This document shows, piece after piece, positions 5,470 through 5,758 of a DNA stretch of 64,000 nucleotides. How positions within the stretch are numbered: the stretch's first letter is position 1; the number at the start of each line of letters is the position of its first letter. The stretch spans positions 64,001 through 128,000 of the IMG/VR virus record IMGVR_UViG_3300031972_002446. The stretch is one strand, 5' to 3'. The stretch is from a virus. Position numbers and translations under genes: made by a program. The notes under the pieces are model-generated. The model saw only the letters and a program-made list of their open reading frames with translations, did no database searches and was not told where the DNA came from.

Positions 5470-5758
5470 AAAAAAACCGCCACAGGCTGTTTCCTCAACG
5501 CTCTCAAATAGTCTTGCAACTACCAAGTCTCTAGAGTTGTACCAGCCCGTTAAGCGGCTTATATTATTGGACGGGGAGGACTTCTTTTTCTACCTCCAAC
5601 TTTTCAGGGCATGATATGTCATAGTTCCCTACTTCGCACCGCTAGCCCAAACCTCAAGCACTTGCCCGTTGGTAAGGATTCGCGTACTGTTGTACCCTCA
5701 TGCGGGCCAGCACACTTTCAGTCACCGTCCTATAGCAAGGGTGCTACCCTTACTATAT
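5470..5758 (-). ncRNA. putative structured ncRNA (~290 nt) ending in a terminator-like stem plus U tract
   Basis: no credible ORF; nested helices (GGACGG/CCGTCC, GCCCG/CGGGC, AGGG/CCCT, GGAGG/CCTCC, 12-bp 5' hairpin, CGGGCTG/CAGCCTG); G-U pairs mostly favour the minus strand. Confidence 0.65.

What the first reader, a model, noticed from the sequence alone, without database searches (positions are those of the whole stretch)
5470..5758. Second large structured RNA downstream of the Api92-like gene
Seen on the minus strand: a 5' hairpin TATAGTAAGGGT-AGC-ACCCTTGCTATA, then a ~160-nt multiloop closed by GGACGG/CCGTCC. It contains GTGCTgGCCCG/CGGGCaAGTGC, TGAGGG/TCCTTA, GTAC/GTAC, AGGG..TATGA/TCATG.CCCT and GGAGG/CCTCC. 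A final domain CCGC..CGGGCTG/CAGCCTG..GCGG ends in U6. The region is GC-rich for this genome, and its G-U wobbles mostly support the minus strand. It is much more elaborate than a terminator, so it is a candidate ribozyme, riboswitch-like element or structural RNA.
Basis: partly seen in the sequence, partly recalled or inferred. Interest (0 to 1): 0.7.

Follow-up and report, generated by a model that had tools for sequence, protein, structure and literature searches.

The report
Divergent manA-type phage RNA plus terminator
The flagged stretch is a real, conserved, roughly 200-base folded RNA of uncultured marine phages, an uncatalogued slimmed-down relative of the known "manA" RNA, followed by an ordinary transcription terminator; what it does for the phage is still unknown.

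Summary
Real feature, partly re-drawn. Minus strand 5559-5766 is a conserved structured RNA. Minus strand 5470-5558 is a separate, non-conserved intrinsic terminator (long hairpin plus U7).

The RNA is the only sub-threshold Rfam match in the region: manA, RF01745, 23.5 bits against a cut-off of 55.2, E 5.7e-4, full length. I found about 45 homologs in seawater metagenomes, IMG/VR contigs and one Flavobacteriales-binned MAG contig.

On 26 of them the consensus fold pairs 98% of cells and has 18 pairs with compensatory changes. That fold is a 5' hairpin P1 and a five-way junction (P2-P6), plus a covarying loop-loop pairing, GCAUGA with UCAUGC.

A model built only from these variants hits the known site, full length, in 15 of 19 canonical cyanophage manA loci (best E 2.4e-6). 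I therefore read it as a manA relative. Its three-hairpin P4 domain is replaced by one long hairpin.

Its inner helices show no covariation.

The downstream neighbours differ between relatives: terminator, tmRNA, phosphoribosyltransferase gene or HNH gene. Some relatives have a dedicated promoter. This favours a stand-alone RNA module over a switch for one gene.

A 2026 preprint shows that canonical manA RNAs form RNA-only cages in vitro. This scan has already reported other manA-like RNAs beside phage tRNA genes on other DNA.

The parts
5759..5766 (-). Conserved A/U-rich 5' leader (UACAAAAC; family consensus AAUACAAUAC) between the stop codon of the upstream gene and P1
   Evidence: the motif is present before P1 in nearly all homologs, whatever the upstream gene. 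A similar AAUACAA follows P2.
5731..5757 (-). P1 hairpin (11 conserved pairs, 5-nt loop in the family)
   Evidence: 7 of 11 pairs changed on both sides, 97% of cells paired. Window against L002: 9 of 28 bases differ, yet the hairpin is kept.
5569..5730 (-). Five-way junction core closed by P2 (5730-5725 with 5574-5569). Contents: GUGACUGAA (5725-5717); P3 (5714-5709 with 5696-5691); long P4 hairpin (5684-5640); P5 (5630-5628 with 5608-5606); P6 (5597-5593 with 5579-5575).
   Evidence: RNAalifold and pair counts on 26 homologs. manA match over 5565-5757. Only 4 differences in 162 nt against L002, versus 10.9% in the adjacent gene, Fisher p 4e-4.
5609..5703 (-). Long-range pairing of the P3 loop GCAUGA (5703-5698) with UCAUGC in the P5 loop (5614-5609). 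It may be within one molecule or between molecules.
   Evidence: helix 4: 99.4% paired. In subgroup C the U-A pair becomes A-U (GCAAGA/UCUUGC). That is one evolutionary event only.
5559..5568 (-). Conserved 3' tail (AAUAAUAUAA; family consensus A-N-AAUACAA)
   Evidence: present in all subgroups, directly before whatever follows (terminator, tmRNA 5' end or ORF).
5470..5558 (-). Intrinsic terminator: long hairpin from GCCGC to GGCGG, then U7. Not part of the conserved RNA.
   Evidence: Fold. Not alignable to L002. Relatives carry other terminator hairpins at the same place. The type used by relatives recurs unlinked at window 10727.
5342..5369 (-). Strong sigma-70-type promoter (TTGACA-16-TAGAAT) that restarts transcription for the next gene (4991-5278) and tRNA-Arg
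   Evidence: 11 of 12 matches. The homologous promoter follows the upstream gene directly in relatives that lack the RNA.
5767..6282 (-). Upstream 171-aa gene (MPNWC...), co-oriented. The RNA starts 8 nt after its stop codon.
   Evidence: The same gene precedes the RNA in most subgroup A homologs.
6404..6432 (-). Nearest upstream promoter on the RNA's strand (perfect TTGACA-17-TATAAT); likely source of the transcript that ends in the RNA
   Evidence: No promoter-like site lies between it and the RNA.

Best explanation
Minus strand 5559-5766 encodes a self-contained folded RNA of the manA class, in a slimmed, uncatalogued subfamily. It is followed by an ordinary intrinsic terminator (5470-5558).

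Shown:
- The RNA is conserved far above its flanks.
- It folds into a P1 hairpin plus a five-way junction supported by covariation.
- It is reciprocally similar to canonical manA.

Inferred:
- In this phage it is made as the last element of an early transcript. That transcript starts at the promoter at 6432-6404, runs through the 171-aa gene and stops at the U7 terminator.
- It acts as an RNA in its own right rather than switching a particular downstream gene.
- The most likely mode of action is architectural. A compact core is locked by the L3-L5 pairing, and it may associate with copies of itself, as canonical manA RNAs do in vitro.

Its benefit to the phage is not known. Its company (tRNA genes here; tmRNA, tRNA and nucleotide-salvage genes in relatives) points to the phage's translation and nucleotide supply module.
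For: 1. Real RNA.
- Fold z -3.8 on the minus strand only.
- Core 97.5% identical to L002, against 89% for the adjacent gene; P1 is 32% different but still a hairpin.
- About 45 homologs.
- 98.3% of cells paired, 18 pairs changed on both sides, 0 of 500 shuffles as good, slid controls 41-51%.

2. manA relationship.
- RF01745 is the only notable Rfam hit: full length, correct strand, E 5.7e-4.
- Subgroup B hits it independently at 24.9 and 19.8 bits.
- The variant-only model R2 finds the known manA site full length in 15 of 19 canonical loci, best 24.6 bits, E 2.4e-6.
- Shared features: P1 abutting P2, GUGACUGAA, UGCCC in P5, UUG followed by P6 GGUA..AA.UCC abutting the P2 3' strand.

3. Stand-alone module.
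- The downstream neighbour varies: terminators of several types, a tmRNA 5' end 5-17 nt after the tail (L062, L041, L054, L241), a phosphoribosyltransferase gene with an IMPDH/GMP-reductase-like gene (named by eye from its N-terminal motif), or HNH or HTH ORFs.
- Relatives carry perfect or near-perfect promoters 60-90 nt upstream of P1.
- The element is absent from the same junction in L003-L006.
- Here a strong promoter restarts transcription right after the terminator.

4. Canonical manA RNAs form 8-, 10- and 60-mer RNA-only assemblies through kissing loops in vitro (bioRxiv 10.64898/2026.07.01.735769).

5. RNA-library contigs from three studies cover 5554-5777 with unlike flanks. This is a weak hint of expression only.
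Against: - The Rfam gathering score is not reached (23.5 against 55.2).
- The canonical P4 domain, with its GUGGUG, GAAA and ACCA hairpins, is missing. Peripheral helices differ between the canonical manA assemblies and set their contacts, so those contacts need not exist here, and self-assembly is not shown for this variant.
- No raw reads were available, so the transcript ends, abundance and even transcription are not shown.
- In subgroups B and C an ORF starts 10-25 nt after the RNA, as for canonical manA in P-SSM2. That fits a cis-regulatory 5' UTR.
- The L3-L5 pairing rests on one compensatory event.
Confidence: 0.6

Rival explanations
1. It is a cis-acting riboswitch or attenuator. The manA-like core would be an aptamer, and the hairpin plus U7 directly behind it (or, in relatives, the start region of the next ORF) would be its expression platform.
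For: - manA was proposed as a riboswitch candidate lying in 5' UTRs, including those of nucleotide-synthesis genes (PMC2864571; P-SSM2 purL/purM context).
- Subgroup B sits directly before a phosphoribosyltransferase gene followed by an IMPDH/GMP-reductase-like gene (named by eye), and subgroup C 10-25 nt before an ORF.
- A terminator starts about 10 nt after P2 in many subgroup A members.
Against: - I found no alternative (anti-terminator) pairing. The P2 3' strand resembles the terminator's 5' arm rather than complementing it (read from the sequences).
- The terminators are interchangeable modules, and one type recurs elsewhere in the genome.
- In four contexts the next thing is a tmRNA gene, not an ORF.
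- Here a strong promoter directly after the terminator drives the downstream gene independently.
- No ligand is known for manA after 16 years.
Confidence: 0.2
2. It is a mobile or recombination-prone RNA cassette. It would be spread between intergenic sites, perhaps with free-standing homing endonucleases, and the AAUACAA motifs on both sides would be its borders.
For: - The element is present or absent at the same junction in close relatives.
- It occupies at least four different genomic positions.
- HNH or HTH-type ORFs lie directly behind it in subgroup C and in L034; I named these from motifs by eye.
- A direct-repeat-like AAUACAA lies on both flanks.
Against: - Strong purifying selection and covariation show that the RNA fold itself is selected. 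Mobility therefore would not explain its function.
- Most copies have no endonuclease nearby.
- No target-site duplication is visible at the empty site in L005.
- There is one copy per genome.
Confidence: 0.08
3. It is a processing element or ribozyme that defines the ends of neighbouring RNAs, for example the 5' leader of the tmRNA or tRNA precursor.
For: It lies 5-17 nt before the mature tmRNA 5' end in L062, L041, L054 and L241, and it lies in tRNA-rich regions.
Against: - No self-cleaving family matches.
- Many copies, including this one, have no RNA gene directly behind them but a terminator.
- RNase P alone accounts for tmRNA 5' maturation (established knowledge).
Confidence: 0.06

Closest known systems
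manA RNA motif (Rfam RF01745; Weinberg et al. 2010, PMC2864571)
   Same: - Marine phage setting.
- A 5' hairpin directly abutting a multi-stem junction.
- The junction strand GUGACUGAA.
- UGCCC in the P5 region.
- UUG followed by a P6 hairpin GGUA...AA.UCC that stacks on the closing helix.
- A tail containing AAUAC in the one canonical example aligned here that shows it (L105).
- Reciprocal profile matches.
   Different: - Scores 23.5 bits against a gathering score of 55.2.
- The three-hairpin P4 domain (GUGGUG, GAAA and ACCA loops) is replaced by one 45-nt bent hairpin.
- The P3 loop is enlarged to 12 nt and pairs with the P5 loop.
- The lower stem of P5 is absent.
- P1 is longer.
- The host phages are not T4-like cyanophages. 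The terminase is only 25% identical to its best isolate match, and the 732-aa ORF next to the terminase gene (not identified) has no isolate match at all.
- It often lies at the 3' end of a gene, or before a tmRNA gene, rather than in a 5' UTR.
Other manA-like RNAs beside phage tRNA genes reported earlier in this scan (e.g. e1-5392558, e1-5362657)
   Same: Uncatalogued manA relatives in uncultured phages. They lie next to tRNA or tmRNA genes and behave as genes of their own.
   Different: Those are enlarged or doubled forms (300-575 nt). This one is a reduced single-core form of about 200 nt. I did not compare the sequences directly.
GOLLD / ROOL large ornate RNAs (PMC12286853)
   Same: Phage- or prophage-associated structured RNAs that form RNA-only homo-oligomeric cages in vitro. 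That they often lie near tRNA genes is my own knowledge and was not read here.
   Different: They are several times larger and gave no Rfam match here. The resemblance is in context and possible behaviour only.

Membership tests
manA RNA (RF01745) | Covariance-model score at or above Rfam's gathering score (55.2 bits) | tested here: not met
   23.5 bits, E 5.7e-4 in a 601-nt scan. Not reported in whole-window scans. Subgroup B scores 24.9 and 19.8 bits. Positive control, P-SSM2: 181.6 bits.
manA RNA (RF01745) | 5' hairpin P1 immediately followed by the closing helix of a multi-stem junction | tested here: met
   P1 ends at 5731 and P2 starts at 5730. Both covary.
manA RNA (RF01745) | Conserved junction strand GUGaCUGAA after the closing helix | tested here: met
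   GUGACUGAA at 5725-5717, invariant in all 26 aligned homologs.
manA RNA (RF01745) | P4 domain with three hairpins carrying GUGGUG, GAAA and ACCA loops | tested here: not met
   Replaced by a single long hairpin (5684-5640) with its own covariation. My first manA-style P4 (GCUGGCCC/GGGCUAGC) pairs at only 4 of 8 positions in subgroup B (counted by hand on the alignment).
manA RNA (RF01745) | 3' hairpin GGUA..AAUCC preceded by UUG and abutting the 3' strand of the closing helix | tested here: met
   UUGGAGGUAG...AAGUCCUCC followed directly by CCGUCC. The subgroup B loop UAAAAAGUAAGU is closer still to the consensus.
manA RNA (RF01745) | Reciprocal profile similarity (a model of the candidate family finds canonical members) | tested here: met
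   R2 gives full-length hits on the known site in 15 of 19 canonical loci; four of them have E below 0.003 in a 146-kb search.
manA RNA (RF01745) | Location in the 5' UTR of a protein-coding gene | tested here: inconclusive
   Not so in the window, where a terminator follows. True for subgroups B and C. In four contexts a tmRNA gene follows.
manA RNA (RF01745) | Homo-oligomeric assembly through kissing loops (in-vitro property reported in 2026) | not testable with these tools
   Only the covarying L3-L5 complementarity is seen. Whether it forms within or between molecules cannot be told from sequence.

The most novel reading that the evidence does not exclude
This would be a minimal, P4-reduced manA-type RNA that marine non-cyanophage phages, possibly of Flavobacteriales, make in quantity. 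It would be made from the same transcription units as their tmRNA and tRNA genes. It would assemble through its covarying L3-L5 loop pairing into an RNA-only oligomer or cage inside the infected cell. The family would then be a natural 'deletion series' showing which manA helices set the assembly geometry.
Probability: 0.25. Interest if true: 0.75.

Novelty: new variant of a known kind. Interest (0 to 1): 0.45.

Why it matters
manA has been an orphan since 2010. It was first taken for a riboswitch and has now been reported to build RNA-only cages in vitro, with no known biological role.

This subfamily adds several things:
- It extends manA beyond T4-like cyanophages.
- It falls below Rfam's threshold, so current annotation misses it.
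- It lacks the canonical peripheral domain.
- It turns up directly in front of phage tmRNA genes, or at the end of a transcript with its own terminator.

That context argues for a gene-like RNA product rather than a switch. It also gives a compact construct (about 200 nt, with a testable covarying loop-loop contact) for assembly experiments.

The gain is incremental. The kind of RNA is known, and similar relatives have already been seen in this scan.

Tried and rejected
- Whole-window Rfam scans at gathering and at E up to 1 found only three tRNAs. The manA match appears only when a short stretch is scanned.
- blastn of the region against 50,697 isolate phage records found no match.
- The genome search with RF01745 on the window's own genome gave no candidates, because of the filter.
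- Loci found through the upstream protein: only L002 carries the RNA. The apparent R1 hit in L014 is a hairpin followed by a tRNA.
- The first viral pattern scan, which required NGTG and GGT, gave only L002 plus chance hits in coding DNA.
- My first manA-style secondary structure (P4 = GCUGGCCC/GGGCUAGC, model R1) was energetically close to the optimum, but it pairs at only 4 of 8 positions in subgroup B (hand count). I replaced it with the RNAalifold fold.
- The single-sequence-like model R1 against P-SSM2 manA gave only 5.3 bits, E 4.3. The 26-sequence model R2 was needed.
- Syn9 and S-RSM4 gave no RF01745 match with the fast search.
- The genome contigs pattern scan gave 22 chance hits and one true hit, L241.
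- Read laying was possible only on contigs, so it shows no ends, no strand and no reliable depth. Parts without cover, and the depth figures, are not used as evidence.
- I found no sign of a circular form in those contigs.
- I looked for an anti-terminator pairing between the core and the terminator and found none convincing. An AU-rich complementarity between the tail and the terminator loop in L033 and L002 is not present in the window.
- The other structured RNA at 7144-7459 is not related to this family.

Full report
**Setting.** The window is bases 64001-128000 of a 165,940-bp IMG/VR virus record rated complete. Runs that hold the stretch are seawater metagenomes. The phage is not T4-like. 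Its large terminase is at best 25% identical to any isolate, the best being Microcystis phage MaeS and Bacillus siphoviruses. The 732-aa ORF next to the terminase gene has no isolate match at all.

The flagged stretch lies in a minus-strand early-type region studded with consensus promoters and three tRNA genes. It sits between a 171-aa gene (5767-6282) and a promoter-driven 95-aa gene (4991-5278).

**Checking the observation.**
- The sequence reads as described.
- As RNA, the minus strand of 5470-5758 folds to -103.6 kcal/mol. Shuffles average -84.4 (z -3.8; none of 200 as good). The plus strand is unremarkable (z -1.4).
- GC is 0.48, against 0.33-0.41 immediately downstream.

**What it matches.** At Rfam's gathering thresholds the window yields only tRNAs. 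A sensitive scan of 5300-5900 gives one notable match: manA RNA (RF01745) at 5565-5757 on the minus strand. The match covers the full model (1-192) at 23.5 bits, E 5.7e-4. That is well under the family's 55.2-bit cut-off, and the next match has E about 1.

The ends align convincingly:
- the P1 hairpin;
- GGACG followed by GUGACUGAA;
- UGCCC;
- UUG followed by the GGAGGUA...UCCUCC hairpin, abutting CCGUCC.

The middle aligns poorly. A true manA from cyanophage P-SSM2, used as positive control, scores 181.6 bits. It lies 16 nt before a purL-like gene in a hsp20/purM cluster.

**Homologs.**
- Loci found through the upstream protein showed the RNA only in the closest relative, L002 (neighbour 91% identical at protein level).
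- There the junction core differs at 4 of 162 positions. The adjacent gene differs at 10.9% (19% at third codon positions); Fisher p 4e-4.
- P1 differs at 9 of 28 bases yet keeps its pairing, with two fully compensatory changes.
- Everything after the tail AAUAAUAUAA is unalignable.
- In relatives with a 79% identical neighbour (L003-L006) the element is absent. The gene's stop codon is followed directly by the promoter and the small MKAF... gene.
- A pattern made of the manA-like junction strands then retrieved 70 metagenome stretches. A covariance model of window plus L002 (R1) confirmed 39 of them at 82-251 bits.
- The same pattern gave four more IMG/VR contigs, and one 14-kb contig binned into a Flavobacteriales MAG.
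- The members fall into three subgroups: A (window-like), B and C.
- The genome holds a single copy. The other structured RNA at 7144-7459 is unrelated.

**Structure.** RNAalifold was run on a sequence-only MAFFT alignment of 26 distinct members. It gives:
- P1;
- a closing helix P2;
- P3 (UGUGCU/GGUACA with a 12-nt loop);
- a long irregular P4 hairpin (5684-5640);
- P5 (AGG/CCU);
- P6 (GGAGG/CCUCC).

This is a hairpin followed by a five-way junction. I added a long-range pairing between the P3 loop (GCAUGA) and the P5 loop (UCAUGC). It is invariant in subgroups A and B and becomes GCAAGA/UCUUGC in subgroup C.

Counted on the alignment, 98.3% of cells are paired and 18 pairs changed on both sides. 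No shuffle out of 500 reaches any of the five measures, and slid controls pair only 41-51%.

It keeps P1, P2, AGGG/CCCU and P6. Its four inner helices have no compensatory change and are 72-91% paired. My own first manA-style P4 also pairs at only 4 of 8 positions in subgroup B (hand count).

The overlapping plus-strand ORF (5611-5913) has no family match. All three antisense frames carry stops in L081 and subgroup B, so it is not a conserved coding frame.

**Relationship to manA.**
- Subgroup B members independently give RF01745 as their only RNA-family match at the element: 24.9 bits (E 0.0014) and 19.8 bits, both full length.
- In the other direction, model R2, built only from the 26 variants, was run without filters on 19 canonical manA loci fetched by a canonical-only pattern. 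It reports a full-length hit on the known site and strand in 15 of them. The best is 24.6 bits, E 2.4e-6, and four have E below 0.003 in a 146-kb search.
- The architecture is the same: P1 abutting P2, and four stems inside. The junction strands also correspond.
- What differs is the periphery. The canonical P4 is a three-hairpin domain (GUGGUG, GAAA and ACCA loops). Here it is one hairpin, the P3 loop is larger, and the lower P5 stem is missing.

I therefore treat it as a divergent subfamily of the manA class, not as a member by Rfam's criterion.

**The last third is a terminator.**
- 5558-5477 is a long hairpin followed by U7.
- Relatives have other hairpin-plus-U modules at the same offset, about 10 nt after P2.
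- The type used by L033 and L002 occurs almost identically at window 10727, unlinked to any such RNA.
- Immediately after the terminator a strong promoter (5369-5342) drives the next gene.

**Context across the family.**
- In subgroup A the RNA nearly always starts a few bases after the MPNWC gene. It is followed by a terminator or by a tiny hydrophobic ORF.
- In L062, L041, L054 and L241 the mature 5' end of a phage tmRNA gene (tag ADTSVLALAA) follows 5-17 nt after the tail.
- In L076 and L047 a phosphoribosyltransferase gene follows. It is the same 159-aa type as window 2989-3468, which matched PF00156; the homology to that ORF is by eye. After it comes an ORF with an IMPDH/GMP-reductase-like N-terminus (also by eye).
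- In subgroup C an HNH-type ORF follows, and in L034 an HTH-type ORF and then tmRNA. These names come from motifs read by eye.
- L241, L062 and L101 carry perfect or near-perfect TTGACA/TATAAT promoters 60-90 nt upstream of P1, embedded in the end of the preceding ORF.
- The window has none nearer than 6432-6404.
- Both flanks carry a similar A/U-rich motif: AAUACAAUAC before P1, and A-N-AAUACAA after P2.

**How it most likely works.** The element keeps its sequence and fold while what lies downstream changes freely. It sometimes has its own promoter, and it is bounded by a terminator or by an RNase P site. That is the behaviour of an RNA product, not of a leader tuned to one gene.

A 2026 preprint reports that canonical manA RNAs assemble in vitro into octamers, decamers and a 60-mer icosahedral cage. 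They share a common core, and their peripheral helices differ and set the kissing-loop contacts. The preprint claims no biological role (10.64898/2026.07.01.735769).

My best reading (0.6) is a stand-alone architectural RNA of that class. Here it would be made as the 3' end of the early transcript that also encodes the 171-aa protein. The L3-L5 pairing would lock the core or link copies.

What remains uncertain:
- Self-assembly of this reduced form is inference only, because the canonical peripheral loops are absent.
- Contigs from RNA libraries of three studies cover just the core, with differing flanks. That shows presence in RNA libraries, not transcription or ends.
- The riboswitch reading (0.2) stays alive because subgroups B and C sit like canonical manA in front of ORFs, including nucleotide-salvage genes. 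However, I found no anti-terminator logic, and the tmRNA contexts do not fit.
- Mobility (0.08) may explain its scattered positions but not its function.
- A processing or ribozyme role (0.06) has no positive evidence.

**Novelty.** The kind is known. The subfamily is not catalogued (no Rfam hit at threshold), it is absent from isolate phages, and it is structurally reduced. Earlier notes of this scan already describe several enlarged manA-like RNAs beside phage tRNA genes on other genomes. The general phenomenon is therefore not new within this project. Those notes led me to the preprint, which I then read myself.

Noticed in passing
L062:6746-7300, L241:6804-7350, L041, L054: Relatives of this phage encode a one-piece tmRNA (tag ADTSVLALAA). 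Its 5' end lies 5-17 nt after the manA-like RNA, behind a shared perfect promoter. This looks like an RNA-tmRNA transcription unit.
   Followed up: partly
L089, about 75-1065 nt downstream of its RNA (oriented coordinates 2250-3032): A tmRNA-like 5' end (GGGGGCGUAAAGGUUUCGACC) is followed by a 136-aa ORF, and only then by the tmRNA that ARAGORN calls. This may be an ORF insertion with duplication of the tmRNA 5' part.
   Followed up: no
L007:3680-3930: Two tandem, roughly 70% alike copies of a 100-nt structured-looking element (GACUAGAUU.GGAUAA...CGAUAAACC...) lie in a 900-nt gene-free stretch before a tRNA, in a 232-kb relative.
   Followed up: no
window 10657-10745 (-): A terminator module (ACCGCCUGUAAGACC...GGCGAGGCGGUUUUUU) is almost identical to the one that follows the manA-like RNA in relatives L033 and L002. 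Terminators seem to be shuffled as cassettes.
   Followed up: partly
L088, L072, L050, L042 (11 nt after the RNA); L037 and L069 further downstream: A tiny hydrophobic ORF (MIEVIILII..., 18-25 aa) recurs just downstream of the RNA in several subgroup A relatives.
   Followed up: no
L040:5579-5656 (oriented coordinates): ARAGORN calls a tRNA with a four-base anticodon (atct) next to tRNA-Ile and tRNA-Lys in the closest relative. It could be a frameshift-suppressor-like tRNA or an artefact.
   Followed up: no
window 8591-8658: A 68-nt patch is 97% identical to L002 amid flanks of 82-87% identity. It may be another conserved non-coding element.
   Followed up: no
window 5767-6282 (-): The upstream 'Api92-like' gene has no Pfam match even at E 10. 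Its relatives occur in Puniceispirillum phage HMO-2011, Roseobacter phage CRP-207 and Prochlorococcus phages P-HM1, P-HM2 and MED4-213 (27-36% identity).
   Followed up: partly
Model R2 gives only a 36-nt hairpin hit, E 0.03.
   Followed up: partly
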